Below are positions 7,241-64,000 of a stretch of DNA of 64,000 bases, one piece after another (positions within the stretch are counted from its first letter, which is position 1; the number at the start of each line of letters is the position of its first letter). Position numbers and translations under genes: made by a program. The notes beneath the pieces were generated by a model. The model was not told the DNA's origin and did no database searches. It saw only the letters and a list, made by a program, of their open reading frames with translations. Source of the stretch: Patescibacteria group bacterium (GTDB taxonomy: Bacteria; Patescibacteriota; Minisyncoccia; UBA6257; JACRHW01); assembly GCA_028865725.1 (NCBI GenBank), contig JAGWJP010000001.1, positions 55,377 to 119,376 on the forward strand, in the 5' to 3' direction.

Positions 7241-7260
7241 CATGGGCGAAATTTTTTCAT

Positions 7261-12957: not shown

Positions 12958-12961
12958 ATAC

Positions 12962-20194: not shown

Positions 20195-20195
20195 A

Positions 20196-21111: not shown

Positions 21112-21177
21112 ATACTATTAGGTTTTTTTCAATCAATAAACCAAACCTGACGTTGTTGGTGACAATTATAAAAAGTA

Positions 21178-21206
21178 TTGACTTTTCTTACAAAATACTA
21201 TATAAC
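21178..21206 (+). promoter_or_regulatory. Candidate sigma-70 promoter for the DGR-1 target gene
   Basis: TTGACT, 17 nt, TATAAC. Followed by a ~135-nt leader with a long imperfect stem before the RBS AAAGGAGG. Confidence 0.4.
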
Positions 21207-21343
21207 ATAATTATCCTGTTCTTTAACATGGTAAAATTCAGTATGAGACGAGCGTTTTGGATGCCAAATAGAGGTGGTTTTCAGACCGCTCTTCTCATCC
21301 GAGAGAGCCAGGAGCAATCCTGATTTCATAAAGGAGGTGTGCG

Positions 21344-22129: not shown

Positions 22130-22489
22130 ACCTAGAACCTTGAAGCCTTGAGCTTCTTCGACCCCTTGAGTTTCCCGCAACGATTTGCGTGAGACTCTTG
22201 GGGTTTTTTCTTTTTGAATTCTTTTTTGATACAATATCCTTGTTCTGCTTTTGAAGGTGAGGCTACGGTTTCATCTCGCAGATGTCTCTTCTTTGAGACT
22301 TCGCCAGAATAGCAGTTGTCTACGGATACCGCTAGCGTGCGAATAAAGATGGAGATTGGACTTCTTGCTCATCTTTGGTGGAGATGGTTTCACAACTTGC
22401 TCCCAAATAAAATACAGAAAGGAGAGGATATAGACTCCCGTGAGTAGTAACCCTCGATTTTCAGTGACAGAGAGGAAGATGGGCAAATT

Positions 22490-22611
22490 TCTCGATTCGG
22501 ACGGCAACCGTGTCAACGTCGGTAACTTCGATGCTAATGGGCTGAACGTCAACAACTACTGGGATGATAACCGTAACTCCAACATCGGTCTCGCCTCCGC
22601 TCGGCACTCTT
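22490..22611 (+). repeat. DGR-1 template repeat (TR1), rich in AAC codons
   Basis: gattcggacggcaaccgtgtcaacgtcggtaacttcgatgctaatgggctgaacgtcaacaactactgggatgataaccgtaactccaacatcggtctcgcctccgctcgg. Followed by the hairpin aacacccc-tttc-ggggtgtt. Confidence 0.8.
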
Positions 22612-22645
22612 TTCTCTATCACAACAACACCCCTTTCGGGGTGTT

Positions 22646-22996
22646 TTAGTAACTTTTTGTTGCTTTAATCCAACCCCCGAGCATTTTTCCAATTTCATCA
22701 ATATGTTCCTGAAGTATGATATATTTTTTAGCATCAATCGCTTTTACCTCTTTTGATAATCGCACCAATACCCGCAAGAGATTTAATTTCACGCTTGTTT
22801 TTTCAAGTATTGGGAGTTTCTCCATTTTTGTACTCTGGCTTGCGGCGAGAAGAAATTCTACAATATCTAACATTATTGTTTCGCACCGTTGCCATAGAAT
22901 ATAACGGTCTTGTTTTGCAACTGTGTTCCGATAGCTATACAGTGTTTTATACAGCTCATACGTTTTCTTAAAAATTGGGATATCGAATTCGTCCAT
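22646..22996 (-). CDS. avd: Avd-like accessory variability determinant of DGR-1 (four-helix-bundle family)
   Basis: 116 aa and helical. Divergent from the RT with a 4-nt gap. Paralog of the C-terminal part of the 61345-61719 ORF (DIPIFKKTY...IGKMLGGWI). Confidence 0.7.
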   Translation of the reverse strand: MDEFDIPIFKKTYELYKTLYSYRNTVAKQDRYILWQRCETIMLDIVEFLLAASQSTKMEKLPILEKTSVKLNLLRVLVRLSKEVKAIDAKKYIILQEHIDEIGKMLGGWIKATKSY

Positions 22997-23000
22997 AATT

Positions 23001-24047
23001 ATGAAAGTTTATAAGAATGTTTTTGAAGAAATAATTTCGTTAGAAAATTTGTTTGCTGCATGGGATACCTTCAAGAGCAACAAACAGAAGAAACGAGACG
23101 TACAAGCATTTGAATGGAATCTTGAACATAACATCTTCGAACTCCATAGAGCTTTGAAGTCAGGGCGTTATCGCCATGGTTCCTACACCTCGTTCTTTAT
23201 TCAAGACCCGAAGCAACGTCATATTCATAAGGCATTGGTACAAGATAGGATATTGCATCACGCTCTCTTTACGGTATTGAATCCAATCTTTGAATCCACG
23301 TTTATTGCTCATTCGTTTTCGTGCCGTGTAAACAAGGGAACTCACAAAGGCATAGAAGTTCTCGAAGGAATGATACGAAAAATAACCCACAATGGGGTTC
23401 ATATGGCGTTTGCTTTGAAATGTGATGTCCAAAAGTTCTTTGGGTCGGTTGACCATCAAACTCTGAAGTCTATCCTTGCTCGAAAAATCAAAGATGTTCA
23501 GGCACTGGACTTGTGTAGCAAGATTATCGACAGTTTTGCCACAAACCCGTTGGGGGGGGGGCGTTATAGGAGGGGTTTGCCGATTGGTAACCTCACCTCG
23601 CAATTGTTTGCCAACATCTATCTGAATGAATTTGACCAGTTTATTAAGCATGATTTGAAAGTGAAAAATTACGTACGGTATACCGATGATTTTGTCATTG
23701 TGCACCAGAGTGAGGAAGAACTCAAGAACCTTTTACCGAAGATACGAGAATTTTTGAGCACGAGATTAAAACTTACCTTGCATCCCCGAAAAGTTATCTT
23801 GAATAAAACATCCCAAGGAGTCGATTTCTTGGGGTATGTACTTTTGCTTCATCACAGAGCGTTGCGTACGAAAACAAGGAGGCGGATAGTGAGAAAATTC
23901 AAATTGCGGATGGGGGAGTATAGAAAGGGAGTTATTACAAGGCAGACCCTTGAACAGTCGTTGCAATCCTATCTCGGTGTTCTTTCTCACGCAGATAATT
24001 ATGTGATTTCCGAAGGATTAAAGAATATGCTTTGGTTTTGGAAATAG
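23001..24047 (+). CDS. DGR-1 reverse transcriptase
   Basis: 348 aa. Motif GLPIGNLTSQLFANIYLNEFD carries the DGR-specific I/LGxxxSQ. Also YTDDFVIV (YxDD). Confidence 0.85.
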   Translation: MKVYKNVFEEIISLENLFAAWDTFKSNKQKKRDVQAFEWNLEHNIFELHRALKSGRYRHGSYTSFFIQDPKQRHIHKALVQDRILHHALFTVLNPIFESTFIAHSFSCRVNKGTHKGIEVLEGMIRKITHNGVHMAFALKCDVQKFFGSVDHQTLKSILARKIKDVQALDLCSKIIDSFATNPLGGGRYRRGLPIGNLTSQLFANIYLNEFDQFIKHDLKVKNYVRYTDDFVIVHQSEEELKNLLPKIREFLSTRLKLTLHPRKVILNKTSQGVDFLGYVLLLHHRALRTKTRRRIVRKFKLRMGEYRKGVITRQTLEQSLQSYLGVLSHADNYVISEGLKNMLWFWK

Positions 24048-51788: not shown

Positions 51789-52778
51789 TTATATATACTG
51801 TACTTCTTCTGAGAGTTCAATTCCGAATTTTTTCTGTACGCGATGTTTTAGGCGCTTTACGAGTCTTGCGAGATCATGTGCCGTTCCGTTTCCTTTGTTG
51901 TAGATAAGGTTTCCATGATAGGCCGCGACGGCAATGTCGTGCTCGGCAAGTCCCATCGCGCCCGCTTCTTCGAGGAGGTATCCACTTGCGAGTTTTCCAA
52001 ATGTTATTTTTTCTGGCGGTATTTTTTTCATGAACTCATCGCGTAACGAGGCAGGGGATATCATTTTGATGACAAGATTTTTAAAAAAGCTTCCTGGGCA
52101 GCGCATTCCACGTGGATACTTTTTTTCACGAAGGCGTATCGTATCGCGCGAGATTTTTTTGAGTGCCGCAGGATGCGCATGTGTGTAGGTGAATGTCGCT
52201 GCAAGGATGATCCAATTCTTTTTCTTTTTGAAGATACTTGAGCGGTAGCGAAACATACATGCATCGCGCGTAAGCCACCGCACGGTGCGCCCGTCATATA
52301 TTTGTACGTGATGGAGGCAATCCTTAATTTCTTGGCCATAGGCACCCGCGCATCCATAGATTGCGCCACCTATTGTGCCTGGGATACCTGCCATGCGTTC
52401 CATGCCCGCCAATCCTATTGCGTTTATCCTTTTTATTAATGCGAGGAGGTTGTATCCCGCGCCGACAGTGATGGAATGAGTGCTTTTATCTATCGTACAG
52501 TCCGCAATACGGTTTTGTATCACAAGGCCGTTAAATCCAATGTCCTCCGCAATGATGTTCGATGCTTCCCCGATCACCACATACGGCATGCGATAGGCAC
52601 GCGCGAGGCGAACTGCTTCAAGAAGTTCGTGTTCGTGTTGCGCCATAACTATATAGTGCGCAGGTCCGCCAATATGTATGGACGTTATTTCGCGGAGAGG
52701 ATACTCGATCCGCAGTCTTTTTTTAAAAAGAGTGTGGAGCGCGTTCTCTATAGTGTCGGTACGCGTTTTCATGTACAT
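51789..52778 (-). CDS. murB: UDP-N-acetylenolpyruvoylglucosamine reductase
   Basis: FAD-binding domain ITSIHIGGPAHYIV...VVIGEASN. MurB C-terminal domain GAGYNL...AGMERMAGIPGTIGGAIYGCAGAYG. Confidence 0.85.
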   Translation of the reverse strand: MYMKTRTDTIENALHTLFKKRLRIEYPLREITSIHIGGPAHYIVMAQHEHELLEAVRLARAYRMPYVVIGEASNIIAEDIGFNGLVIQNRIADCTIDKSTHSITVGAGYNLLALIKRINAIGLAGMERMAGIPGTIGGAIYGCAGAYGQEIKDCLHHVQIYDGRTVRWLTRDACMFRYRSSIFKKKKNWIILAATFTYTHAHPAALKKISRDTIRLREKKYPRGMRCPGSFFKNLVIKMISPASLRDEFMKKIPPEKITFGKLASGYLLEEAGAMGLAEHDIAVAAYHGNLIYNKGNGTAHDLARLVKRLKHRVQKKFGIELSEEVQYI

Positions 52779-52832
52779 TGATAAAATACAATGTTTTCGG
52801 TACCATTACAATTGTTCGGGCGAACGGAGAAG

Positions 52833-52904
52833 GCTCCTGTAGTTCAATGGATAGAACATCCCCGTCCTAAGGGGAGGATGCAGGTCCGATTCCTGCTGGG
52901 AGCA
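52833..52904 (+). tRNA. tRNA-Arg (anticodon CCT)
   Basis: GCTCCTGTAGTTCAATGGATAGAACA-TCCCC-GTCCTAA-GGGGA...GCAGGTCCGATTCCTGCTGGGAGCA. Confidence 0.8.
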
Positions 52905-53054
52905 CACACTAGTGAGAGGTGTTTTGCGACCGTGTTTCTCGGTACTCCTGGGCGACCACGAGAGCCGACCCGACTGTACGGAAACACGTTTCACACACAA
53001 CAATAGCGCAGCATTTTGCCGCGCTCTTGTTGTCTCTCTCCACACATGACCCCG

Positions 53055-54395
53055 CTATACCGTTTCTTTCTGCACCAAACTGATCGTTCTGTCTTTGAGC
53101 GTAAGCCTACTTTTCAAGTTTGAAAGCAGCTCTCGCTTCTCTGTGATTGATCCGTCAGTCAAAATGTAGGCGGCATAGGCTTTCACATCAAAGATATCCG
53201 ATTCGTCATTCTTTTCCTTGGCTTTCCCCAACGCAATCCTCCTGAACTTGTTGTAACGGGTTATCTCATCATTGAATTTTTGTTTCACGCCAAGTTCGTT
53301 TAGATCGAGGGTATTCAAGATAGGGATGATTTGTTCAATGATCTCTTCTTCTTTGATGTAGCCGCACGGACAGTTTACATCTCTCCGCTTCGTACATCCG
53401 TAGTACACGTAACGGTGGGTATTCCCATTCTTCTGGTACTTCCATTTCTCGGAGGCGGTAATCCCTGATCCGCATAATCCACACGTTATCAACTTCGTGA
53501 AGGCGAACTCCTTGTCATTCTTCACCTCGCTCCGAACAAGCTGTTCCCGCGCGCGATCGTACAACTCTTTGGTAATGATAGGAGTATGAGTCCCTGTATA
53601 CCAATTCCCTGATCCTTCGGGGAATTCGAAGACGCCGTAATAGAAGGTTTTCTGGAGAATGAGGAAGATGTTTGAGAGCGAGAGATGTTTTCCATTTCCC
53701 GTTTTGAAATCTACATCGTTCCGAAGCCATTGATACAAGCGGCGGCCGCTCCATCCTTCATGCGCCACCTTCTCAAACATTTGTTTGATGATGGGTGCTC
53801 GTACCGGATCGACAATCACTTCACAGGGCTTATCCTTTCGTTTCTCATTCAGATAACCTGTTGGCGCGACAGAGGGACGAAGTCCTTGTTCGCAGCGTGT
53901 GCGCAATCCGCGTTTTACGTTCTCTGACTTATTGTCATTTTCAAGCTTGGCGGTGGAACACAGAATCATCAGCATGAATTTTTCGCTTGGGCTATTGGAG
54001 AATTTCTGTGAAAAAGTTCGGATTTCGATGAGGAGCTTCTGATCCATGAGATCGACAAGGCTTCCAAGATCGCCCGCATTTCTTGAAAGCCTATCTGGCG
54101 CCCAGGTCAGGATTCCATTAAACTTACCTCCGCGTATATCCTTGAGGAGTTCATTGAACACCTCACGCTGTCCTGTCGCCTTAGCAGAATGGCTCTCCTT
54201 TCTAATCTCTGTGATCTCCAAACCATCCCGCTCGGCAATCTTGATCATTTCTTTGATTTGAGAATCGATGGAAAGCACCTGCTGTTCCTCTGATTCCGTT
54301 GATTTTCTTGCGTACAAACAGTAGGCGACCTTTGTTGGCAGCGGTGGATTGGTTGAGGACGCCGTGCCTGCCGCCCCCTTTAGTTGATTGTTCAT
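53055..54395 (-). CDS. Large serine recombinase (second copy), adjacent to tRNA-Arg(CCT)
   Basis: YCLYARKSTESEEQQVLSIDSQ catalytic region, recombinase and zinc-ribbon domains. The ORF-track start at 54503 would read through the conserved post-VR element, so the internal Met at 54395 is preferred. Confidence 0.8.
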   Translation of the reverse strand: MNNQLKGAAGTASSTNPPLPTKVAYCLYARKSTESEEQQVLSIDSQIKEMIKIAERDGLEITEIRKESHSAKATGQREVFNELLKDIRGGKFNGILTWAPDRLSRNAGDLGSLVDLMDQKLLIEIRTFSQKFSNSPSEKFMLMILCSTAKLENDNKSENVKRGLRTRCEQGLRPSVAPTGYLNEKRKDKPCEVIVDPVRAPIIKQMFEKVAHEGWSGRRLYQWLRNDVDFKTGNGKHLSLSNIFLILQKTFYYGVFEFPEGSGNWYTGTHTPIITKELYDRAREQLVRSEVKNDKEFAFTKLITCGLCGSGITASEKWKYQKNGNTHRYVYYGCTKRRDVNCPCGYIKEEEIIEQIIPILNTLDLNELGVKQKFNDEITRYNKFRRIALGKAKEKNDESDIFDVKAYAAYILTDGSITEKRELLSNLKSRLTLKDRTISLVQKETV

Positions 54396-54454
54396 ACACC
54401 CAAAGGAATGACGCAAACCACCCTGAGCGTCAAGGGTGGGTGAAATGTGATTAT

Positions 54455-54518
54455 AAAAAATTTTTCGAACGTCCAAGGAATCAAGAAGAACCAAGACAAT
54501 CAAGCACCCAAGGCGAAA
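54455..54518 (-). repeat. Conserved ~64-nt element immediately 3' of VR-A (copy 1 of 3)
   Basis: gtttcgccttgggtgcttgattgtcttggttcttcttgattccttggacgttcgaaaaatttttt on the gene strand. Copies are near-identical after each VR stop. Confidence 0.7.
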
Positions 54519-55346
54519 CTACCGAGAGGGACAGACGCCCAGAGTGGAGTAAGTGCTGCCGCGGGAAACGCTGCGGACGCTGAGACCGCCCGAATCGAAG
54601 CTGCCAACGAGGACGAAGCCGCCGCCGGACGACTGAACACCGGTCCAGTCCCATTTATCTTCTAAGAGCGATTCTTTATTGGCGCCATAATATAAAAACG
54701 TATCGTACGCAATTTCTACAGGAGTTCTTCGCTTTACTGAAGCAGGATCAATGTTATTCTGTTTAGCCCAGTCTTTGAGAACCTCTTCTTGTTGGTCCCA
54801 GTTTTTTCCTAATGAATCGGGTAATACCGATCTTGCCACAAGACCCCAACCGAGCTTCGGAGTATCTTCGATAGCGAATTTTTCAGCGTCATACCACCCT
54901 TCACCTTTTTTGCTCACGAACATTTTTTGCTTCTTTTTCTTGGGATTGCCTAATGTGTCGCCACTTGAGAACCTCTCACGTATTTGATCGATAGTTAGCG
55001 GTTTTTCGGTTTTCCCTTCGCCAAGTCTTGATACTCTTAAGACAAGCATCATTCCCAATTTCTTTGCCTGTTCTAGTTCTTCTCGCGTAAAGGGTATTGT
55101 CTCTATTTTTTCTGATTCTTCTGGACTAAGTTCAACGCCATACGTGGCTTTAATGGCTTCGGGTCCTAGAAAGTCTTTACCAAATATTTCTTGGGCCTCG
55201 GTAAATTCAATGGATCCTTCTTTGGCCTCTGGTACAAGATTTTCTTTTTTTGCAATATCCAAAGCTTGCGCTACTTTCTTTTGTGTAGAGGTTTTGTATT
55301 TATTCGGCTCGTATTCGTCGTAGATTTTGTAGGCTTCGAAGGGCAT
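54519..55346 (-). CDS. DGR-2 target (variable) protein A. The C-terminal ~40 aa are encoded by VR-A.
   Basis: 275 aa with no signal peptide. Paralog of the genes at 57411 and 60045 (MPFEAYKIYDEYEPNKYKTSTQKKV...). C-terminus ends ...LGVCPSR. Confidence 0.8.
   Translation of the reverse strand: MPFEAYKIYDEYEPNKYKTSTQKKVAQALDIAKKENLVPEAKEGSIEFTEAQEIFGKDFLGPEAIKATYGVELSPEESEKIETIPFTREELEQAKKLGMMLVLRVSRLGEGKTEKPLTIDQIRERFSSGDTLGNPKKKKQKMFVSKKGEGWYDAEKFAIEDTPKLGWGLVARSVLPDSLGKNWDQQEEVLKDWAKQNNIDPASVKRRTPVEIAYDTFLYYGANKESLLEDKWDWTGVQSSGGGFVLVGSFDSGGLSVRSVSRGSTYSTLGVCPSR
54522..54641 (-). repeat. DGR-2 variable repeat A
   Basis: Reverse complement matches TR2 (61178-61297). Differences are almost all at TR adenines. 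One G-to-T difference. Confidence 0.75.
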
Positions 55347-55347
55347 G

Positions 55348-57333
55348 CTATAGGTCTTGTGTATATTTTAGAATAACGTTTTGGACCGCCTGTGGCAATG
55401 TTTTGATGTCAGCAATAACTTCAGCATCGGGTTTGTAGGTTTCTTTAACAGCTCCGCCTGATTCAGTCATACCAAGACCCAACACAATAACTCCTTTGCT
55501 GCGCAATTCACGAAGGATGCCCTGAACCCGAGAGGCATCCTGACTCTCTCCATCAGAAAGTACCACGACCACCTTTCTTCTCGTTTTTTCTCGCAATTCT
55601 TTCTCTTGCTCTTGCGTAATTGATTTCAGGACCGCATCCAAAGAAAGGTAATCAGGAGTGCCTCCTCCTGCTTTATGCATTTTCTTCCAAATACCAACCC
55701 TATCTTTCTCTGACAACTCCGGCGAAAGTTCTTTCAGTTCGGTATCGCCAAAGTCACCAAAGGCCCTTGTCTCTGTTCTTACCTGAAGACCAAGGACTAT
55801 ACCGCTTTCATATTCAGCTTGTTTGATTTCCTTTTGAAAATCAGCGAGCGATTCCAAGAATAGTAGTTTACTCTTCCGGTCCATTTCTAACTTACCGCCT
55901 TCGCTCATAGAACCAGAAAGATCGTTTACGAGAGACATGTCCAACATACCATAACCTTTTTGTTCTTTCTGATGTTTTTCAAGTTCACGAAATGCGTGTG
56001 GCTCTCCGCCCATCCGAGATTCGATGGAAGATTCGACGAGCGTGTCTTCGGATAATTCTTCACCTTCCGTCTCGAGCTGTGGCGAAAACTTCCAACGTTC
56101 TTTGAGGCGTCGAGAAATAATCTGTTTAAATACTTCTCGCAATTCAGCGACGAGCGGAGCAATTTCTGCATATTCCTTACGATACCCAAGAACATCCTCA
56201 GCGTTAACTCCGTGTTCACGAGCCCATTCTTCAAGAATATTCTGTTCTAGCGTTGGTGCTCCGCCTTTCTTGGCGACAATCTCTTCCATCATTTTCTTGA
56301 TCTGTTTCTCTTCTTCGTAGGTGATAGGTTCAGGGTGGCTGTCGTGGTATGTTTTGTATTGTTCTTTAAACTTCTTCTGAGCCGCTTCTTTCGCAGCACG
56401 ATCGCTGGTTTTTTTATCACCCTCGTTACCCGGCTTTTCTTCTTTTCCTTTGCCTTCTTGCGGTGTTTCCCTTTTTCTCTGCCACCATTTTCTTTTTTCC
56501 TGACCCGAACCTTGACCCTGTTGCGGCTTATCGGAAACCGTAGTGTCTGTTGGTGATACTTGCCCCTGATCTTTTTTACCATTCTTCTTTTCTTCCTCTA
56601 GGTCTTTCTCGTAAAGTTCCCGGTAGATAGGTTCAACGATCGTTCGCATAATGCGAAAACGATCTTTGGGATCAATGGTTGGTGTCGTGACAAGATCTAA
56701 AATATCTATTTTTTCAGAACCAAAACTTCGCAAGGTGTCCAACGCAGTTTGTGCATCTAGCCCAAGTTGTACTGCCTCACCGGACACCATCATCTGCCGG
56801 ATAAACCCATAGGTAAATTGGACATGGGAAGCTTTATCGGTGTAATCGGTTTGTGGAAACATCTTTTCTCGATAGAGAGTTTCACGTGTTTCCTTGAGAA
56901 ACGGAAGCTCAGCAACGATACGCCTGTTGCCTAACACGTCCTCAAAAATATTGTATAACAGATGGAGATGTTCTTTTGCACTATAACGCTTAGCCTCTTT
57001 TAAAATGAGCTCCGGATCGCGCAGGAGCTCGCCGTAGTGGGCCATGAGTTCATGTGTCGTGGCAAAGAGGGTTTCCTGAAGATTATACCCGCGTTCGATA
57101 AAGAAGTTGGGATCGTAGATAAGTTTTCGATTTTGAAAATCAAACGCCCAGCCGCCATTGCCCCGTTCTAAGGTAATGTCGCCCTTTAATCCATAGGCGG
57201 ACAAAAGCTCTGTCTCCCGATTCAAAAACTCCTCAACCGCAGGGGCATCAATTTCACGTTCTTTTTTAGGAACCTCCTGTTTTGGTGTATTACGAGGAGG
57301 TTCCATCCGATTTGTAGGGAATGATTCTTGCAT
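55348..57333 (-). CDS. von Willebrand factor A (VWA) domain protein with a long acidic/basic linker
   Basis: MIDAS LVNDLSGSMSEGG. C-terminal VWA fold ...VVVLSDGESQD...GVIVLGLGMTE. 661 aa. Confidence 0.7.
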   Translation of the reverse strand: MQESFPTNRMEPPRNTPKQEVPKKEREIDAPAVEEFLNRETELLSAYGLKGDITLERGNGGWAFDFQNRKLIYDPNFFIERGYNLQETLFATTHELMAHYGELLRDPELILKEAKRYSAKEHLHLLYNIFEDVLGNRRIVAELPFLKETRETLYREKMFPQTDYTDKASHVQFTYGFIRQMMVSGEAVQLGLDAQTALDTLRSFGSEKIDILDLVTTPTIDPKDRFRIMRTIVEPIYRELYEKDLEEEKKNGKKDQGQVSPTDTTVSDKPQQGQGSGQEKRKWWQRKRETPQEGKGKEEKPGNEGDKKTSDRAAKEAAQKKFKEQYKTYHDSHPEPITYEEEKQIKKMMEEIVAKKGGAPTLEQNILEEWAREHGVNAEDVLGYRKEYAEIAPLVAELREVFKQIISRRLKERWKFSPQLETEGEELSEDTLVESSIESRMGGEPHAFRELEKHQKEQKGYGMLDMSLVNDLSGSMSEGGKLEMDRKSKLLFLESLADFQKEIKQAEYESGIVLGLQVRTETRAFGDFGDTELKELSPELSEKDRVGIWKKMHKAGGGTPDYLSLDAVLKSITQEQEKELREKTRRKVVVVLSDGESQDASRVQGILRELRSKGVIVLGLGMTESGGAVKETYKPDAEVIADIKTLPQAVQNVILKYTQDL

Positions 57334-57344
57334 TGAGATAGTTA

Positions 57345-57410
57345 TAAAAAATTTTTTCGAACGTCCAAGGAATCAAAAAGAATCAAGAGATCCAAGCACC
57401 CAAGGGGAAA
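57345..57410 (-). repeat. Conserved post-VR element, copy 2
   Basis: Same sequence family as 54455-54518. Confidence 0.7.
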
Positions 57411-58229
57411 CTACCGAGAGGGACAGACGCCCAGATCGGAGCTCGTGCCGTCGCGGGTATCGCTGTAGACGTTGAGACCGTCCGAATCGAAGCGGCCAAC
57501 GAAGACGAAGCTGCCGCCGGACGACTGAACGGCAGACCAGTCATAAGAACTTTCGAGGAGAGATTCTTTGTTCGCACCATAATACAAAAGAGTATCGTAG
57601 ATGATCTCAACGGGAGTCCTACGTTTTACTGAAGCAGGATCAATATTGTTTTGTTTGGCCCAACTCTTGAGAACCTCTTCTTGCTGATCCCAGTTTTTAC
57701 TGCGTGATTCCTGTAAGACTTCTTTCATAACTAAACTCCACCCGAGTGAAGGCGTAACCTGTGTAGCAAACGATTCATTATTATACCAATCCTGATCGTA
57801 AAATATCTTTGTTTTTTTCTTGGTGGGATTACCCAACTTGTCTCCCGCCTTAAAAACTCCCCGCACATTGTTAATGCTAAAAGGTTTTGCAGTTTTATCC
57901 TTACCGATTCTTGGTATGCGTAAGACGAGCATCATGCCAAGTTGTTTTGCCTGTTCTAATTCTTCTCGAGTAAATGGGATGTTTTCGATACGTCCAAGTT
58001 CATCAGGAGAGAGTTCAATCCCGAACGTTGCTTTGACAGCTTCAGGACCCAAAAAATCCTTACCTAATAGTTCTTGGGCCTCATTGAACTCAATAGTTAC
58101 TTCCTTTGCCTCAGGCACAAGATTTTCTTTCTTGGCAATATCTAAAGCCTGAGCCACCTTCTTTTGCGTGGAAGTTTTGTACTTGTTGGGCTCGTATTCG
58201 TCGTAAATTTTGTAGGCTTCAAAAGGCAT
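57411..58229 (-). CDS. DGR-2 target protein B
   Basis: 272 aa. About 75-80% identical to target A outside the VR. C-terminus ...SFVFVGRFDSDGLNVYSDTRDGTSSDLGVCPSR. Confidence 0.8.
   Translation of the reverse strand: MPFEAYKIYDEYEPNKYKTSTQKKVAQALDIAKKENLVPEAKEVTIEFNEAQELLGKDFLGPEAVKATFGIELSPDELGRIENIPFTREELEQAKQLGMMLVLRIPRIGKDKTAKPFSINNVRGVFKAGDKLGNPTKKKTKIFYDQDWYNNESFATQVTPSLGWSLVMKEVLQESRSKNWDQQEEVLKSWAKQNNIDPASVKRRTPVEIIYDTLLYYGANKESLLESSYDWSAVQSSGGSFVFVGRFDSDGLNVYSDTRDGTSSDLGVCPSR
57414..57533 (-). repeat. DGR-2 variable repeat B
   Basis: Reverse complement aligns to TR2. All 12 or so mismatches fall on TR adenines. Confidence 0.8.
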
Positions 58230-58258
58230 GATTCGATACGCGTATCAACGAATGGTCA

Positions 58259-59938
58259 TTATTCTTTACCCTGCCACTGACGGACTGTTTTAGAAGATAA
58301 TCCTTGGATATCAAATTCTTCTGGATTAGTGTCCTTGAAAAATTTATTCGCCATAAATACTTTAATCATATTTTCACGATCCTTGGCGGCTCGACCGCTG
58401 ATTTCTGCCTTTCTGAAAAATTCTCGGAGCACAACATTTTCTAATGGTTCAGCAAAACCAGAGGCCTTCCAGGCTTTCATGATTTCAATTTGATCTTTTA
58501 AGGTAATAACGAGTTCTTTAAAGGCAAGTTTATCGCTACGCGCTAATGAATCTTCACCACCTTCTCGCATGCTCAAAGTAAAATCTTCCTGAATCTTACG
58601 GCACGCGCCGACAAAACGCTTTAACGCATCGAGTTTTTGTGGTGCTTCTTGTTCGTCCCACGCAATGGCGCCATTTCGATCTGCAAGTACACCCGCAAGA
58701 ATAGTAAGCGTCTCAGGAGCAATATATTCACCTTCTTTGTTCTTTTTGCCGAGATCTAGATAATGAATTTCTTTCGCCCCCGCACCGCCGATAAAACGGC
58801 GAAGCGTGGCAACATCAAGTTCGTAGCGTTGCTTATAGCGTTCTGATTTAAGATTAGCGGTGGCAAAAATAACAAATCCGGGGGCAACCTTGATTGATTC
58901 TCCTGTTGAAGGATGCTTCCATGAACTGCCCACACGTAACTGAAAAATTTCGTTCAAAATGCCTTGAAATTCATGAGGCATAAGGTTCATTTCATCCAAA
59001 ATAACGGGACGCCCTTCCTTCATGCTTTTCACAAGTTCTGAATACAGAAAATCAGTAGCGCCATCTTTGAGGGTAACACGTCCCATGATTTGAGATTCTT
59101 TGATTTGTTCGGAAATGGAGATTGGCGCAACTTCGTAACCCAGAAATCTATGAGAAATGTATTTAGCAAGCTGAGTCTTGCCAGAACCTGTTTCGCCTTG
59201 AAACAAAATAGGCGCGCCGCGCAATAAATCAGGTAAGACGTCTTGAATAAGCTTGGTGCGCGATTCTGTCTCGGCAAAACTATAACGCTCTAAATCTTGT
59301 TGCGTGCGCCGAACCTCTCTCCGGCGTAGCATATCAATTGATGCCGGATCTAATTCAAAAGCAGTTACATTGTTTTGTAGTTCCTCTCTCCGATTTGTGA
59401 GATCGGTAAGCTTGGTGCGTTCAATCGGGCCCGGTGCGCGTCCTATTTTTTCATAGAGCACGCGAAGTTTTTGTTCACTATTCGTGACAGCGCTAAGTTC
59501 TTTTTGGAGATGTTCATAGGTTAGAACGTTGGCTAACGTATCCTTCATGCCTTCAAAGCGCTCTTTATACGTCTCCATTACTTTGGAGTTACTGCCCAGT
59601 TCTTGAATACGCGCATCATATTCAGCAAGAACATTCTCGGAAAATTCTGCCATTTCAGGATCAATTTTAAGTGCGTCAAATTGAGCCGCAACCGCATCAT
59701 CGCCTTGAGCCTTCAATTCTTCTCGTTCGGTTTTTGTAAGACCGCCCCACGATTCACGGACGTGCTTTGATGCTTCGACTCTTGCGGCGGAGAGGTCCAT
59801 AAGCTCTTGGACTCGTGTTTCAAGTTGCTCAGGAGAAAGTTTTTGCTTCTCTTTTGTACTATCAACACCTTTTTCCTCAATAACGCGCTCCGGAGTGGTA
59901 GGTAGATTAGGCATTGATGGAAATTGTTCTTTGGGCAT
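58259..59938 (-). CDS. MoxR-like AAA+ ATPase (AAA_5 / dynein-related subfamily)
   Basis: Walker A LFQGETGSGKTQLAKY. Walker B VILDEMNLMPHEFQGILNEIFQ. ...FVIFATANL. 559 aa with a coiled-coil N-terminus. Confidence 0.8.
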   Translation of the reverse strand: MPKEQFPSMPNLPTTPERVIEEKGVDSTKEKQKLSPEQLETRVQELMDLSAARVEASKHVRESWGGLTKTEREELKAQGDDAVAAQFDALKIDPEMAEFSENVLAEYDARIQELGSNSKVMETYKERFEGMKDTLANVLTYEHLQKELSAVTNSEQKLRVLYEKIGRAPGPIERTKLTDLTNRREELQNNVTAFELDPASIDMLRRREVRRTQQDLERYSFAETESRTKLIQDVLPDLLRGAPILFQGETGSGKTQLAKYISHRFLGYEVAPISISEQIKESQIMGRVTLKDGATDFLYSELVKSMKEGRPVILDEMNLMPHEFQGILNEIFQLRVGSSWKHPSTGESIKVAPGFVIFATANLKSERYKQRYELDVATLRRFIGGAGAKEIHYLDLGKKNKEGEYIAPETLTILAGVLADRNGAIAWDEQEAPQKLDALKRFVGACRKIQEDFTLSMREGGEDSLARSDKLAFKELVITLKDQIEIMKAWKASGFAEPLENVVLREFFRKAEISGRAAKDRENMIKVFMANKFFKDTNPEEFDIQGLSSKTVRQWQGKE

Positions 59939-59980
59939 ATTGTAAGTGTTATACGGTTATGAATTGATTGTACCAGTTTC

Positions 59981-60044
59981 AAAAATTTTTTCGAACGTCC
60001 AAGGAATCAAGAAGAACCAAGACAATCAAGCACCCAAGGGGAAA
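59981..60044 (-). repeat. Conserved post-VR element, copy 3
   Basis: Same sequence family as 54455-54518. Confidence 0.7.
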
Positions 60045-60857
60045 CTACCGAGAGGGACAGACGCCCAGACTGGAGCTCGTGCCGTCGCGGGTATCGTCGC
60101 TGACGTCGAGACCGCCCGAATCGAAGCTGCCAACGTCGACGAAGCTGCCGTCGGACGACTGAACGGCAGACCAATCCCAGGTAGATTCTAATAATGATTC
60201 TTTGTTTGCACCATAATAGAGGAGAGTGTCATAGATGATTTCTACGGGGGTTCTGCGTTTAATAGTATTCGGATCTATATTATTGTCTTTTGCCCACTTT
60301 TTAAGAACCTCCTCTTGTTGATCCCAATTTTTATCCAATGATTCCTGGAGCACGTCTTTTGTTACCAGGCTCCATTTGAGTTGCGGTGTCGGTTTTGTTG
60401 CAAATTCTTGGTCGTTATACCAATCCTGTGATTTCCAAAACAAATTCGTTTTCTTCTTTGCGGGATCTCCCAATGCATCATCGGACCCGAATTGTTCTCG
60501 CAATTGTTTGATGGTAAGCAGGTTTCCATCCTTATCATGCGATACCCGCAACACAAGCATCATCTTAAGATGTTTTGCTTGTTCAAGCTCTTCTCGAGTA
60601 AACGGGATGTTTTCAATCTCCTGCAATTCTTCAGGGGTAAGTTCGACGCCATATGTCGTTTTAACCGATTCGGGTCCCAGAAAATCTTTGCCGAATAGTT
60701 CTCTGGCTTCATTGAATTCGATGTTTGTTTCTTTAGCTTCAGGTATGAGATTCTCTTTTTTGGCAATGTCTAAAGCCTGCTCAACCTTTTTCTGAGTAGA
60801 AGTCTTGTATTTATTCGGTTCGTATTCGTCGTAAATTTTGTAAGCTTCAAAAGGCAT
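60045..60857 (-). CDS. DGR-2 target protein C
   Basis: 270-aa paralog. C-terminus ...GSFVDVGSFDSGGLDVSDDTRDGTSSSLGVCPSR. Confidence 0.8.
   Translation of the reverse strand: MPFEAYKIYDEYEPNKYKTSTQKKVEQALDIAKKENLIPEAKETNIEFNEARELFGKDFLGPESVKTTYGVELTPEELQEIENIPFTREELEQAKHLKMMLVLRVSHDKDGNLLTIKQLREQFGSDDALGDPAKKKTNLFWKSQDWYNDQEFATKPTPQLKWSLVTKDVLQESLDKNWDQQEEVLKKWAKDNNIDPNTIKRRTPVEIIYDTLLYYGANKESLLESTWDWSAVQSSDGSFVDVGSFDSGGLDVSDDTRDGTSSSLGVCPSR
60048..60167 (-). repeat. DGR-2 variable repeat C
   Basis: Reverse complement versus TR2: all differences are A to G or A to other at TR adenines. Confidence 0.8.
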
Positions 60858-61177
60858 AGCTATTTCTTTAACTATACAGAATATGAAACATTTTTGCCAA
60901 CTTTCGCAATCATAAAACGTATGCCATACTAATGGCGAGCTTTGTTACTAGAGATTAGGCTGCATAGGTTTAATCTTACGGATCTCCTTTTTGCATATTC
61001 CGCCGGAGTTTCTGTGGCATATCGGTTATAGAAAGCGCGCGGTGGCAAAACGTAAGAACAACGAAACTACGTGTTTTGTTTCAATGTGGATGCCTTGTGC
61101 ACGGGCTGCCACTACGTAAAATTCAGGAGATATTTCCTTGTTGAAATTATCCGGTGATGGGGAAGGAACAAAACACA

Positions 61178-61297
61178 CAGGTTCAGTCGTCCGACGGCAA
61201 CTTCGTCAACGTTGGCAACTTCGATTCGGACGGTCTCAACGTCAACAACGATACCCGCGACAACACGAACTCCAATCTGGGCGTCTGTCCCTCTCGG
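61178..61297 (+). repeat. DGR-2 template repeat (TR2), AAC-rich
   Basis: gttcagtcgtccgacggcaacttcgtcaacgttggcaacttcgattcggacggtctcaacgtcaacaacgatacccgcgacaacacgaactccaatctgggcgtctgtccctctcgg. In-frame translation is ...NFVNVGNFDSDGLNVNNDTRDNTNSNLGVCPSR. Confidence 0.8.
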
Positions 61298-61314
61298 TAG
61301 TTTTGTTAATCTGG

Positions 61315-61345
61315 ATGAAGAGGCCTTCTTAGAAGGCCTCTTCAT
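61315..61345. terminator. Perfect 14-bp stem-loop between TR2 and the Avd 3' end
   Basis: atgaagaggccttc-tta-gaaggcctcttcat. Confidence 0.5.
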
Positions 61346-61719
61346 TACTCTCGCGTTGATCGGATCCATCCGCCAAGCATTTTGCCAATTTCCTGGATAT
61401 GGTTTTGGCAAACAACGTATCGCTTATCGCTCAGCGCATCAACGTCGTTTGTTAATCGGATAAAAACTTTTAACATATCAAGCTTGCCGCTTGCAGATTC
61501 TAGTATGGGTAATTTGCGATCTTTTGTGATTTGGGCGGCCAACATAATATCCTTCAAGATTTGTAAAATATATTCTTCGCAATATTGGCCTAACGTATAG
61601 CGATCTTTCTTTGGGAAATCGAGCTCGAAAATGTAGAACTCTTTGAAAAAATCATACGTTTTTTTGAAGATAGGGATATCTAAGCTAAATTTTCCATCAT
61701 AGCCATGAGAGTTTTCCAT
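61345..61719 (-). CDS. avd: Avd-like accessory variability determinant of DGR-2. The start is uncertain.
   Basis: The C-terminal ~120 aa of ORF 61345-61932 align with the Avd of DGR-1 (DIPIFKKTYDFF...IGKMLGGWI). Met at 61719 overlaps the divergent RT start by 15 nt. An alternative start upstream cannot be excluded. Confidence 0.6.
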   Translation of the reverse strand: MENSHGYDGKFSLDIPIFKKTYDFFKEFYIFELDFPKKDRYTLGQYCEEYILQILKDIMLAAQITKDRKLPILESASGKLDMLKVFIRLTNDVDALSDKRYVVCQNHIQEIGKMLGGWIRSTRE

Positions 61720-62757
61720 AATATTTTTGATCAAATTATTAATATAGAGAATTTGGTTACTTCGTGGAGAGAATTTCGGATTGGCAAAAAACATCGCCGC
61801 GATACACTTATTTTTGAATATCGGTTGGAGGATAATCTCTGGTATCTTCGGAGGGTGCTTGAGGATAGAACGTACAAGCATTCCGGATACTTCTCTTTCT
61901 TTGTACAAGACCCGAAGGTCCGGCATATCCATAAAGCATCGGTTCGGGATCGAGTGTTACACCACGCGATTGTGAAACATCTTAACCCAATTTTCGAACC
62001 AACATTTATTTATGATTCCTATTCTTGCAGAATTAATAAAGGCACTCATCGAGGAATCAAAGCTTTTACTAAACATGCTCGGCAAGTCAGCAAAAACTGG
62101 ACAAGCACATGCTGGGTACTGAAATGCGACATCAGAAAATTTTTTGCCACCATCGATCACAATGTTTTGCTCGATATACTCTTTAGACATATTGCCGATC
62201 CTGACACGCGATGGTTACTACGCGAGGTTGTTTCAAGTTTTCGTTCGGAGTTTACGGTTGATCCGGAAAACCCCAAAGGAGTGCCTATCGGCAATCTTAC
62301 CTCGCAACTTTTTGCCAACGTGTACCTGAACGAGCTCGACCAATTTGTAAAGCATCAGTTGAAAGAAAAACACTACATTCGTTATGCCGATGATTTTGTG
62401 ATACTACACCCCCAAAGAGATCACTGTTTAGATATTGTGAAACGTATCACTACATTCCTTAAAGAATTTCTCAAGCTTGAATTGCATCCCAATAAAGTTA
62501 CTGTTAGAAAATTTAGCCAAGGCGTAGATTTTTTGGGTTACGTTTCTTTTCCTCATTTTGTGATACCGAGAAATAAAACCAGGAACAGAGTATTCAATAA
62601 AATACATGACAATATTTTGCTCTATAAACGTGGCCAATGGACGCTCGAGTCACTAAATCAAAGCATTCATTCATATCTTGGAATTTTATCTCACAGTAAT
62701 TCATTTGATCTCCAACAGGAGCTTGAAAATCAGATATTTTTTTGGCTGACAGAATAA
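61705..62757 (+). CDS. DGR-2 reverse transcriptase
   Basis: 350 aa. GVPIGNLTSQLFANVYLNELD (I/LGxxxSQ). YIRYADDFVIL. About 55% identical to the RT at 23001-24047. Confidence 0.85.
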   Translation: MRVFHNIFDQIINIENLVTSWREFRIGKKHRRDTLIFEYRLEDNLWYLRRVLEDRTYKHSGYFSFFVQDPKVRHIHKASVRDRVLHHAIVKHLNPIFEPTFIYDSYSCRINKGTHRGIKAFTKHARQVSKNWTSTCWVLKCDIRKFFATIDHNVLLDILFRHIADPDTRWLLREVVSSFRSEFTVDPENPKGVPIGNLTSQLFANVYLNELDQFVKHQLKEKHYIRYADDFVILHPQRDHCLDIVKRITTFLKEFLKLELHPNKVTVRKFSQGVDFLGYVSFPHFVIPRNKTRNRVFNKIHDNILLYKRGQWTLESLNQSIHSYLGILSHSNSFDLQQELENQIFFWLTE

Positions 62758-62819: not shown

Positions 62820-63932
62820 CTATAGCTCCGGAAAGATTGCTCTCACCTTCGCTTCGTGTTCCTCAATGGTTTTCTGATCTGGCTCAACGGTAGCGATATC
62901 AATCGTCACATCCTCCTCGAACGGCATCGTCTCTTTCTCATGAAAGAGGCGGTTCTTTGTGGTATTCGATTCCTCGTCTATGTTTGTCGCAGTTCGGATC
63001 GCCTTGTTGAGCTGCTCCATGTTTTCCCGCAAGGCAGCGAGTCTCTCGGAGACATGCTCCGCCATATCTGTCTCGTAGATGGGGGAAAGCTTTTTGAACA
63101 CAGTCTCGAAACCAAGGAGAATGGCATAGCCATTGATGAGCAGTTGTCGCCGTTCGGCAAATATTTTCGCTATTTCCTCATCTTTGAATCTGAGAAACAA
63201 TGTCCCGTTTTTTCTGAATTCTTCAAACAATGTCTGTGCATAGAGAAGGTTTGAGAGCATCGTCACACTCATACCATATCGACTGAAGGCGCCTGGTTCT
63301 CGGTTTCCTGCAAGGCTGCAAATCAAGAGCTCTTGGTCGAGATGCTCGTCCGTGTGATCGGGGTCATTTTCAGCGTACACGAGGCCAAGGTTCGGGTCGT
63401 AAGTGTCGACCCGCTTTTTGAAATCCTTGACGAATGCATATGCTCCGCCAAAGGCATAGAGACTTGTTCCGGTGATCACTGTATTGTTAAAGGTTTCGAA
63501 TGCTCTTTTTTCATCAAGTTCGCCTTTGAGGCTCGGCTCGATATTCAGGTTTTCGAAAATCATGGCAGCCGAGGCGAACTCACTATCGTAGAGACCCTTG
63601 CTCCAAAGTTTCTCTTTTCTGGTTTCTTCCTCAGTACGCTCCCTCAAGGCAAGCTCTCCAGAGGCGACATGCTTGCGTAACGTTTTTCTTGCTTTCACCT
63701 TGCTTTGGAACCACCGTTTCAAAAGTTCAGCATCATCGCTTGCCGCAAGCGGTGTGTATTCTTCGATGAGCCCATCGTCAAGCCAGCGTCGGCATGCCTC
63801 GCGAAGCATGGCCTTGATGGTCATAGTATGCTCTTTGGCATAGTGCTGCATCGCCTTCGTCACGGCATCGTGGATGTCATCGTCCTCCTCACGCGCTTCT
63901 TGATCCTTGGCTAGCGGATCGCCCGTAATCAC
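62820..63932 (-). CDS. Hypothetical acidic protein
   Basis: 370-aa ORF (GTG start). No recognisable motif. Confidence 0.4.
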   Translation of the reverse strand: MITGDPLAKDQEAREEDDDIHDAVTKAMQHYAKEHTMTIKAMLREACRRWLDDGLIEEYTPLAASDDAELLKRWFQSKVKARKTLRKHVASGELALRERTEEETRKEKLWSKGLYDSEFASAAMIFENLNIEPSLKGELDEKRAFETFNNTVITGTSLYAFGGAYAFVKDFKKRVDTYDPNLGLVYAENDPDHTDEHLDQELLICSLAGNREPGAFSRYGMSVTMLSNLLYAQTLFEEFRKNGTLFLRFKDEEIAKIFAERRQLLINGYAILLGFETVFKKLSPIYETDMAEHVSERLAALRENMEQLNKAIRTATNIDEESNTTKNRLFHEKETMPFEEDVTIDIATVEPDQKTIEEHEAKVRAIFPEL

Positions 63933-64000
63933 GACCCCATGGCTTTTGAGAAAATACCGGGCTACCTCAAGGAGGGGTATGCAGGCGAAATAGTGGAAGA

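What the first reader, a model, noticed from the sequence alone, without database searches (positions are those of the whole stretch)
52833..54395. Second serine recombinase beside tRNA-Arg(CCT): the DGR-2 / MoxR-VWA locus may itself be mobile
The recombinase lies 150 nt from tRNA-Arg. It directly precedes target A.

Its annotated N-terminus would be translated from the conserved post-VR element. I therefore moved the start to Met37.

If this is an integrase, the DGR plus MoxR/VWA system could move between genomes.
Basis: inference. Interest (0 to 1): 0.5.

Follow-up and report, generated by a model that had tools for sequence, protein, structure and literature searches.

The report
Serine-integrase island carrying a DGR
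The recombinase beside tRNA-Arg is the integrase of a 15.5-kb island that was inserted at the end of that tRNA gene and carries the whole DGR/MoxR/VWA system, and it belongs to a widespread Patescibacteria family of serine integrases that, unusually, insert at tRNA gene ends.

Summary
Observation confirmed, interpretation supported and extended. ORF 53055-54395 (-) is a large serine recombinase (Resolvase+Recombinase+Zn-ribbon). Its real start is Met37, and its stop lies 149 nt from the 3' end of tRNA-Arg(CCT).

A related genome (L012) has tRNA-Arg(CCT) and tRNA-Ser(CGA) 4 nt apart, with syntenic genes on both sides. Here they are 15.5 kb apart. The insert runs from window 52906 to extrapolated 68411 and holds the LSR, three DGR targets, VWA, MoxR, TR/Avd/RT, a 610-aa ORF, two methyltransferases and XRE/ImmA.

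The LSR-proximal ~100 nt and a ~160-nt LSR-distal element are conserved in islands with unrelated cargo. Similarity stops exactly at a shared core, GTGCCCC, which is the last bases of the tRNA.

In 28 of 43 distinct loci with a ≥69%-identical LSR, a convergent tRNA (Arg, Val, Lys or Leu) lies 114-180 nt past the stop codon.

The DGR/MoxR/VWA cassette recurs inside a second complete island at tRNA-Val. Its closest relative (about 78% nucleotide identity) sits beside a different LSR at tRNA-Gln, in the opposite orientation.

tRNA targeting by serine integrases is barely documented. No excision or activity was shown. How the island moves between cells is unknown.

The parts
52833..52905 (+). tRNA-Arg(CCT). 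Its 3' end is the chromosomal (B) arm of the left junction. The core GCAC is at 52902-52905.
   Evidence: ARAGORN; Rfam. The empty-site relative L012 has the same tRNA 4 nt from tRNA-Ser. Junction comparison.
52906..53054 (.). LSR-proximal island end. About 90 nt form a conserved arm (P') with three GCGACC-type repeats (52906-~52996). A terminator-like hairpin follows at ~52997-53033.
   Evidence: Conserved next to different tRNAs in 33 distinct LSR loci (alignments). nhmmer near-end profile hit at window 53038-52882, E 2.5e-29. No Rfam family matches it.
53055..54395 (-). Large serine recombinase (integrase), 446 aa. Catalytic motif YARKST: R30/S32 counted from Met37.
   Evidence: Pfam; PHROG integrase; PDB SPbeta SprA. 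8000 homologues scored (the search's candidate cap, all with E <= 1e-10); the 120 listed are 62-87% identical, from Patescibacteria. Invariant start and motif.
54396..54518 (-). Intergenic stretch. The conserved post-VR element of target A occupies ~54444-54518; a unique 48 nt with a hairpin precedes the LSR start.
   Evidence: Repeat family D1; alignment of the three post-VR regions.
54519..55346 (-). DGR target A (VR 54514-54638). Island cargo.
   Evidence: TR/VR alignment: 17 of 19 mismatches fall at TR adenines. No Pfam domain.
55348..57333 (-). VWA-domain protein. Cargo.
   Evidence: Pfam VWA 7e-07. 85% identical homologue in the L104 cassette.
57411..58229 (-). DGR target B (VR 57408-57530). 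Cargo.
   Evidence: 12 of 12 mismatches at TR adenines.
58259..59938 (-). MoxR-like AAA_5 ATPase. Cargo.
   Evidence: Pfam AAA_5 6e-20. The 95 homologues found all score E <= 1e-82 (46-92% identity), and most lie on short contigs.
60045..60857 (-). DGR target C (VR 60042-60164). Cargo.
   Evidence: 11 of 11 mismatches at TR adenines.
61181..61305 (+). DGR template repeat (TR).
   Evidence: Local alignment to the three VRs.
61345..61719 (-). Avd accessory protein (124-aa call on record).
   Evidence: Pfam bAvd 5e-18; gene call.
61705..62757 (+). DGR reverse transcriptase.
   Evidence: Pfam RVT_1 1e-26.
62820..64000 (-). 3' part of a 610-aa ORF of unknown function (its N-terminal part lies beyond the window end). 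The island continues beyond the window to extrapolated 68411 (L001 16707). That stretch holds 70-aa and 130-aa ORFs, an N6/N4 methyltransferase, a ParB_N-methyltransferase, XRE plus ImmA/IrrE peptidase, and then the 160-nt LSR-distal end element (L001 16549-16707). A 24-nt host spacer and tRNA-Ser(CGA) (L001 16732-16822) follow.
   Evidence: Gene table; Pfam; tRNA; sequence. Far-end profile hit at L001 16707-16549, E 1.5e-39.

Best explanation
The recombinase is the integrase of a 15.5-kb integrative island, spanning window 52906 to extrapolated 68411. The island is inserted at the 3' end of tRNA-Arg(CCT), between that gene and tRNA-Ser(CGA). The DGR-2/MoxR/VWA system is cargo of this island.

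Inferred mechanism:
- The circular element carries an attP made of the LSR-proximal arm (P') joined to the LSR-distal arm (P).
- The LSR pairs attP with an attB whose left half is the acceptor/T-arm end of a tRNA gene.
- It exchanges strands within the last bases of the gene (GCAC, up to GGGGCAC). The tRNA stays intact, and only 4-10 nt are duplicated.
- The P arm mimics the tRNA end. Consensus P is GTGCCCC-N5-GG-N2-T-N-GAAC; the tRNA reverse complement is GTGCCCC-N5-GGAATCGAACC. This would explain how near-identical integrases use Arg, Val, Lys and Leu tRNA genes.
- The XRE/ImmA pair at the distal end probably controls expression or excision.

The island has no capsid or conjugation genes, so movement between cells must rely on something else (transformation, a helper element or a phage).

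Shown here: the insertion, its boundaries, the conserved ends, the tRNA association, and recurrence of the cargo in other islands.

Inferred: the crossover position, the half-site recognition, the regulation, and present-day activity.
For: Domain architecture and the invariant catalytic motif.

Empty site with synteny on both flanks.

Far-end element:
- It was found with the window's own far end as query in L052, L024, L003/5/37 and L006.
- A profile hits 18 loci; in 17 of the 18 the hit lies upstream of the LSR, and all are on the LSR's strand, with E down to 1e-39 (L101).
- Similarity between islands stops exactly at GTGCCC.

The near-end arm is conserved next to different tRNAs.

tRNA association: 28 of 43 distinct loci have a convergent tRNA 114-180 nt after the stop, against a tRNA density of 1 per 11.8 kb.

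L007 and L008 share an identical 7.4-kb island but differ to the left of the far end.

P'-P junctions lie in L024 and L071, and tandem elements in L008.

The P arm and the tRNA end are 14/22 identical in the window, and the consensus positions are shared.

DGR/MoxR/VWA as cargo:
- It lies inside a second complete 20.3-kb island at tRNA-Val.
- It lies next to the LSR at tRNA-Arg(GCG/TCT) in L023/25/27/28.
- The closest cassette (77-79% nt identity) sits beside a 59%-identical LSR at tRNA-Gln, in inverted orientation.
Against: - No excised circle, no empty site in the same population and no biochemical activity were observed.
- The empty-site genome is a distant relative (MurB 56% identical), so the insertion could be old and the island now fixed.
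- GC content does not differ from the flanks.
- The core repeat in the window is only GCAC exact (6/7 with GGnGCAC), which on its own would be chance.
- The repeated GGTCGC motifs at the two ends are direct, not inverted. The P and P' arms are offset by about 6 bp. A simple symmetric LSR attP does not predict either feature.
- 9 of the 43 loci have no tRNA called after the LSR.
- No recombination directionality factor was identified.
Confidence: 0.8

Rival explanations
1. The island is a degraded prophage or phage satellite. The LSR is a phage integrase, and transfer is by packaging into a helper phage capsid.
For: - The LSR matches PHROG integrase phrog_95.
- The ParB-methyltransferase (phrog_498, 8e-100) and the XRE/ImmA-type module are typical of temperate phages and satellites.
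- One IMG/VR contig encodes a 58%-identical LSR.
Against: - No capsid, terminase, portal or tail gene lies in the 15.5 kb.
- The 610-, 70- and 130-aa ORFs have no PHROG hit.
- The IMG/VR contig carries type I restriction-modification-like genes and no structural genes.
- Islands of the family range from about 3 to 20 kb, with cargo such as helicases, a 1605-aa beta-helix protein and methyltransferases.
Confidence: 0.12
2. Only the recombinase gene with its ~150-nt tail is mobile (an IS-like unit that lands beside tRNA genes). The DGR/MoxR/VWA locus is resident chromosome that happens to lie next to it.
For: - The LSR plus spacer is the only part common to all loci, and it is far more conserved (83-87% aa identity) than the neighbouring cargo.
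- The sequence just upstream of the LSR start in the window is DGR-derived, not a recognisable element end.
Against: - In L012 the whole 15.5 kb is absent, not just 1.5 kb.
- The conserved distal end lies 15.5 kb away, exactly where synteny resumes.
- The same distal element bounds islands of about 3 to 20 kb elsewhere.
- L007 and L008 share LSR plus cargo up to that element and diverge beyond it.
Confidence: 0.04
3. The recombinase works on the DGR locus itself, for example by inverting or shuffling the three paralogous target genes, rather than integrating an element.
For: - The DGR cassette is inverted relative to the LSR between the window and L104/L023-type loci.
- The three targets carry about 300-nt repeats that could serve as recombination substrates.
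Against: - Most family members sit beside cargo with no DGR at all.
- The conserved sequences associated with the LSR are the island ends, not sites inside the DGR.
- The architecture is that of integrases, not of small invertases.
- The target repeats are direct, so recombination between them would delete rather than invert.
Confidence: 0.04

Closest known systems
Phage and ICE large serine integrases (phiC31, Bxb1, A118/LI, SPbeta SprA, TnpX, CcrAB)
   Same: - Resolvase catalytic domain, recombinase domain and zinc-ribbon domain.
- The integrase gene sits at one end of the element.
- Very short identity between the two junctions.
- Best solved relative is SPbeta SprA (E 1.5e-13 over residues 29-383).
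   Different: - The characterised members target protein-coding or intergenic sites, each with one specific attB.
- This clade sits at the 3' ends of many different tRNA genes.
- It has long conserved arms (about 90 and 160 nt) with repeated GGTCGC motifs, instead of about 50-bp minimal sites.
- Only distantly related in sequence.
tRNA-gene genomic islands with tyrosine integrases (Islander/TIGER class)
   Same: - The integrase gene lies next to an intact tRNA gene.
- The island is inserted at the 3' part of the gene.
- The gene is preserved.
- Tandem arrays occur.
- Cargo of accessory and defence-type genes.
   Different: - The integrase is a serine, not a tyrosine, recombinase.
- The displaced tRNA fragment is only 4-10 nt, instead of tens of nt.
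[quoted passage not shown] Only 14 of 297 S-Int elements were mapped to t(m)RNA genes, with 'experimental proof required' (PMC7192596).
DGRs on mobile elements (Bordetella phage BPP-1; Legionella genomic-island DGRs) and MoxR-vWA conflict systems with DGR-diversified components (PMC7159879)
   Same: - A complete DGR (RT, Avd, TR, adenine-mutated VRs) is carried as cargo of a mobile element.
- It is associated with a MoxR/vWA pair.
   Different: - The host is Patescibacteria, whose DGR clade was described as almost entirely cellular-encoded (PMC8144416).
- The carrier is an LSR island without phage or conjugation genes.
- There are three small paralogous targets with no recognised domain.

Membership tests
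Large serine recombinase / serine integrase | N-terminal resolvase-type catalytic domain with the serine nucleophile motif | tested here: met
   Pfam Resolvase 4e-21, residues 27-171. YARKSTESEE is invariant in 7 aligned homologues.
Large serine recombinase / serine integrase | C-terminal recombinase domain plus zinc-ribbon domain (a protein of >400 aa, not an invertase of ~190 aa) | tested here: met
   Pfam Recombinase 3e-11 and Zn_ribbon_recom 7e-10. Full-length match to PHROG integrase phrog_95, 4e-65.
Large serine recombinase / serine integrase | Coiled-coil motif inserted in the zinc-ribbon domain, which controls directionality | not tested
   No structure prediction or coiled-coil analysis was run.
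Large serine recombinase / serine integrase | The element is bounded by attL/attR that share only a short core, and an unoccupied attB exists elsewhere | tested here: met
   Empty site in L012. Core GCAC/GTGCCCC at both junctions, with conserved arms that end there.
Large serine recombinase / serine integrase | Catalyses attP x attB recombination | not testable with these tools
   Needs biochemistry or reads spanning the circle and empty-site junctions.
Islander-type tRNA genomic island | Tyrosine integrase | tested here: not met
   The only recombinase in the island is a serine recombinase.
Islander-type tRNA genomic island | A displaced tRNA fragment of tens of nt as a direct repeat at the distal end | tested here: not met
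   No repeat of the tRNA or spacer longer than 11 nt in the window. At the distal end only GGnGCAC matches.
Diversity-generating retroelement (the cargo) | RT plus accessory protein plus TR/VR pairs whose differences fall at TR adenines | tested here: met
   RVT_1 and bAvd. 17/19, 12/12 and 11/11 mismatches at TR adenines for VR A, B and C.
Prophage | Virion structural and packaging genes | tested here: not met
   No such Pfam or PHROG hit among the island ORFs. Three ORFs remain unassigned.
ICE / integrative mobilisable element | Relaxase, oriT or type IV secretion genes | tested here: inconclusive
   No Pfam hit to such genes. The 610-aa, 130-aa and 70-aa ORFs have no assignable function.
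Small serine invertase/resolvase | A protein of ~180-200 aa with a C-terminal HTH, acting on inverted or res sites flanking a short segment | tested here: not met
   446 aa with RD and ZD domains. The secondary PHROG 'DNA invertase' hit covers only the catalytic domain.

The most novel reading that the evidence does not exclude
This Patescibacteria LSR clade may be a general 'tRNA-end' integrase. It would read the universal T-arm/acceptor skeleton of tRNA genes, and its attP would carry a mimic of that skeleton. One enzyme lineage could then colonise many tRNA genes (Arg, Val, Lys, Leu; Ser, Gln and Trp in the sister clade). It would serve as the main vehicle that spreads and reshuffles DGR/MoxR-vWA, methyltransferase and restriction cargo among ultra-small bacteria. 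That would be the first well-supported family of serine integrases specialised on tRNA genes, and a candidate tool with a near-universal landing site.
Probability: 0.35. Interest if true: 0.75.

Novelty: new variant of a known kind. Interest (0 to 1): 0.62.

Why it matters
- **DGRs in Patescibacteria.** The DGR clade of Patescibacteria has been treated as chromosomal. Here a complete, adenine-mutating DGR with its MoxR/vWA partners is shown to be cargo of a bounded integrative island. The same cassette recurs in islands with different integrases, different tRNA sites and different orientation. That gives a concrete route for the spread of DGRs in these reduced genomes.
- **Serine integrases and tRNA genes.** tRNA genes are the classic targets of tyrosine integrases. 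Use of a tRNA gene by a serine integrase has been called unreported and in need of proof. This family offers dozens of natural junctions, predicted attP/attB sequences and a testable recognition model (a tRNA-end mimic in attP).
- **Annotation.** The conserved end elements allow such islands to be delimited in fragmentary metagenome assemblies. This matters because most contigs carrying the homologous MoxR gene are short, and several break off within the cassette.

Tried and rejected
- **Repeat search.** I looked for a long direct repeat of the tRNA-Arg 3' end or spacer inside the window. Nothing longer than 11 nt turned up, and the real distal end lies beyond the window.
- **Rfam.** A scan of 52700-54700 at E<=1 found only the tRNA. 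The conserved spacer is not a known RNA family.
- **Base composition.** The profile along L001 shows no step at either island boundary.
- **Viral collection.** One contig carries a 58%-identical LSR, but it has restriction-modification-like genes and no virion genes. It does not support a phage origin.
- **Exact-protein look-ups.** Look-ups of the 370-aa partial ORF and of the 482-aa long form of the LSR found nothing, because the recorded calls differ.
- **LSR-1 island.** I tried to use L012 to delimit it, but synteny is lost beyond window ~46470. The far-end profile of this family does not match anywhere in the first 64 kb.
- **Crossover in the 6-nt spacer.** The centre of the imperfect P'/P inverted repeat is a 6-nt spacer just outside the tRNA. 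I considered it as the crossover site and rejected it for the window, because the near (TAGTGT) and far (CAACCA) spacers share no dinucleotide at any aligned position.
- **First TR/VR alignment.** It used the wrong TR strand and was redone.
Full report
**1. What is at the coordinates**

ARAGORN and Rfam place tRNA-Arg(CCT) at 52833-52905 on the + strand. On the - strand an ORF runs from 54503 (TTG) or 54395 (Met37) to the stop at 53055.

The 446-aa product has the three Pfam domains of a large serine recombinase (LSR): Resolvase, Recombinase and Zn_ribbon_recom. It matches the PHROG integrase family phrog_95 over its full length. Its best solved relative is the SPbeta serine integrase.

The 36 codons upstream of Met37 overlap the post-VR repeat that follows all three DGR targets. 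Homologues start at the equivalent Met. The motif YARKSTESEE, which contains the presumed catalytic serine, is invariant. The gene call on record is already 446 aa.

The window's other LSR (7916-9568, -) is 36% identical. The observation therefore holds in every detail.

**2. Where the window comes from and what lies beyond it**

The RT protein locates the window on JAGWUQ010000002.1 (GCA_028868355.1, a Patescibacteria MAG). Locus L001 covers window 51705-72757.

Past the RT come:
- a 610-aa ORF, then 70-aa and 130-aa ORFs without assignable function;
- an N6/N4 methyltransferase and a ParB_N-methyltransferase;
- an XRE repressor-like protein with an ImmA/IrrE peptidase;
- tRNA-Ser(CGA) at L001 16732-16822, which is extrapolated window 68436-68526.

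**3. Empty site**

A scan of species-representative genomes with the neighbouring MurB found L012, a Parcubacteria group MAG with MurB 56% identical.

In L012, tRNA-Ser(CGA) and tRNA-Arg(CCT) are 4 nt apart. MurB, tRNA-Ala(GGC) and tRNA-Val(GAC) follow in the same order as in the window. On the other side lie homologues of the 166-aa and AAA_28 genes that follow tRNA-Ser here.

So the 15.5 kb between the two tRNA genes is an insertion relative to that relative. It contains the LSR, the three targets, VWA, MoxR, TR, Avd, RT and the methyltransferase/XRE-ImmA block.

**4. The integrase family and its tRNA association**

The LSR search scored 8000 homologues, which is the search's candidate cap. 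The 120 best listed are 62-87% identical, almost all about 446 aa, and come from Yanofsky-, Kerfeld-, Moranii-, Nealsonbacteria and other Patescibacteria.

In every context I first inspected, the LSR stop faces the 3' end of a tRNA gene 125-150 nt away, but the tRNA differs: Val-GAC, Leu-CAA, Arg-CCG, Lys-TTT.

Across 80 further metagenome loci the pattern holds:
- Of 43 distinct loci with an LSR at least 69% identical, 28 have a convergent tRNA 114-180 nt after the stop.
- Those 28 comprise 18 Arg of five anticodons, 5 Val, 4 Lys and 1 Leu.
- Six more have a convergent tRNA at 735-1187 nt, and nine have none called.
- tRNA density in these loci is 1 per 11.8 kb.

In the one 735-nt case whose sequence was examined (L052), extra sequence lies between the LSR and the conserved arm, and the arm still abuts the tRNA. 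The sister clade, at 60-65% identity, uses Ser, Gln and Trp genes or none.

**5. Island ends**

*LSR-proximal end.* The spacer consists of a terminator-like hairpin followed by about 90 nt that are conserved between loci with different tRNAs. It ends ...ACCTCGCAC(AGTGTT) directly against the tRNA.

*LSR-distal end.* I used the window's own distal region as a query. A conserved element of about 160 nt appeared upstream of the LSR, in the same orientation, in L052, L024, L003/5/37 and L006. A profile built from these finds it in 18 loci, including L101, with E from 1e-39 to 1e-3. In 17 of them it lies upstream of the LSR, always on the LSR's strand. L053 is the exception: its hit lies about 2.7 kb downstream of the LSR stop, at the contig end.

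Read in the LSR's sense, the distal element begins GTGCCCC(T)nC(R)CGGTCT... Similarity between islands stops exactly there. The near junction is ...P'|GTGCCCCC-tRNA(rc).

The shared core is 7 nt in L024, L006 and L008. In the window it is GTGCTCC against GTGCCCC, with GCAC exact at 52902-52905 and extrapolated 68408-68411. This places the island at 52906-68411.

Further support:
- L007 and L008 share an identical 7.4-kb island and diverge to the left of the distal element.
- In L024 and L071 the distal element is directly preceded by a copy of the proximal arm, giving a P'-P, attP-like junction. In L008 it is preceded by another LSR with its spacer, that is, tandem elements.

**6. Recognition model (inference)**

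The first 23 nt of nine distinct distal arms give the consensus GTGCCCct.CacGGTCT.g.Acc. The reverse complements of 29 target tRNA ends give GTGCcCcCg.gAGGAATCGAACC.

The two share GTGCCC, GG at positions 13-14, T17 and the (G)AAC(C) of the T-loop. In the window, 14 of 22 positions are identical, including TCGGAC at 17-22.

The proximal arm carries an inverted GTGCG.GGTTC-type copy displaced by about 6 bp.

I therefore propose that the enzyme reads the acceptor/T-arm skeleton of tRNA genes, that the element carries a mimic of it, and that strand exchange occurs within the terminal GCAC. The 6-nt spacer cannot be the crossover site in the window, because the near and far spacers share no dinucleotide at any aligned position.

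Two features are not explained by a simple symmetric attP: the direct (not inverted) GGTCGC repeats at both ends, and the 6-bp offset.

**7. The DGR as cargo**

DGR-2 is complete. TR lies at 61181-61305, and the three VRs differ from it at TR adenines in 17/19, 12/12 and 11/11 mismatches.

The same kind of cassette appears in other islands:
- It lies inside a second fully bounded island of 20.3 kb at tRNA-Val(GAC). That island has an 86%-identical LSR and additional IS elements.
- It lies directly beside 83%-identical LSRs at tRNA-Arg(GCG) and Arg(TCT), on contigs that break inside MoxR.
- The closest relative of this cassette is in L104: RT 82%, Avd 86%, MoxR 86%, VWA 85% amino-acid identity, and 77-79% nucleotide identity over 7.3 kb. 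It sits next to a different LSR (59% identical) at tRNA-Gln(TTG), inverted relative to the LSR, with only two targets on the contig, which ends just after the second target.

The cassette is thus a module that moves among islands of this kind. Other recurrent cargo includes ParB-methyltransferase pairs, helicases, restriction-modification-like genes and a 1605-aa beta-helix protein.

**8. What was not shown**

- No excision product, empty site in the same population or enzymatic activity was observed.
- The comparator genome is distant.
- Base composition is uninformative.
- No directionality factor and no transfer machinery were identified.
- A phage or satellite origin remains possible but lacks structural genes.

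**9. Relation to the literature**

- The TIGER study mapped 14 of 297 S-Int elements to t(m)RNA genes. It called this previously unreported and in need of experimental proof (PMC7192596).
- My full-text searches found no description of tRNA-targeting LSR islands in Patescibacteria.
- Patescibacterial DGRs (clade 2) are described as almost entirely cellular-encoded (PMC8144416).
- MoxR-vWA systems with DGR-diversified components are known from multicellular bacteria (PMC7159879).

The mechanism class (LSR-mediated integration of an island with cargo) is known. The systematic tRNA-end targeting, the long conserved arms, the tRNA-mimic arm and the DGR cargo in Patescibacteria make this a new variant.

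**10. Verdict**

Confidence in the island/integrase explanation is 0.8. Interest is 0.62.

Noticed in passing
window 7872-24047: The first LSR (7916-9568, -) overlaps the 3' end of tRNA-His(GTG) (7872-7945) by 30 nt, which is the same convergent geometry. Following it are a Toprim+AAA_25 primase-helicase, a 745-aa RT, a methyltransferase, a ResIII helicase and the DGR-1 RT (23001-24047). In L012 tRNA-Val to tRNA-His spans 6.5 kb; here it spans 41 kb. This is probably a second, much larger island with different end sequences: the far-end profile of the LSR-2 family has no hit there.
   Followed up: partly
window 7242-7871: tRNA-Arg(TCT) and tRNA-His are 25 nt apart in L012 but 630 nt apart here. 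The extra stretch holds only an ORF (7216-7827, GTG start, overlapping the tRNA) with no Pfam hit, and no Rfam family at gathering score.
   Followed up: partly
window 54519-62757 versus L104 1940-9256: The DGR/MoxR/VWA cassette is inverted relative to the LSR between the window (target A next to the LSR) and L104/L023-type loci (RT next to the LSR). L104 shows two targets instead of three, but its contig ends just after the second target, so a third cannot be excluded. How the inversion arose is unknown.
   Followed up: no
L024 2799-3077; L071 2499-2716: A copy of the LSR-proximal arm is fused directly to the LSR-distal element (a P'-P, attP-like junction), with no complete second LSR upstream. 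In L024 this copy includes the last codons of an LSR. It may be a remnant of a tandem insertion, or an assembly joining circular and integrated forms.
   Followed up: partly
L006 11464-11651: Two tandem copies of tRNA-Arg(CCG) sit next to the LSR of a small island of about 3 kb in a Kerfeldbacteria genome. The core identity between the junctions there extends to about 10 nt and includes the encoded CCA.
   Followed up: no
L102 and L103, 7185-16707: A MoxR-target-VWA-target-target block (MoxR 67% identical) is preceded by a MerR/HTH_17 protein. No LSR or tRNA lies within 10 kb. Two contigs with the identical MoxR have different left flanks, which suggests another way this cassette moves.
   Followed up: no
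L001 16967-17728 (extrapolated window 68671-69432): A 92-aa ORF and a dUTPase gene lie just beyond tRNA-Ser, outside the island boundary. They are absent from the corresponding place in L012, where the next syntenic gene follows about 50 nt after the tRNA.
   Followed up: no
L007 3976-4015: The flank to the left of the distal element reads GTGTCCCTACATGGTCTTGAACCGCACTCAGCGTT. It looks like the first 22 nt of a distal arm fused to the last 13 nt of a proximal arm, possibly a scar of a deleted element.
   Followed up: no
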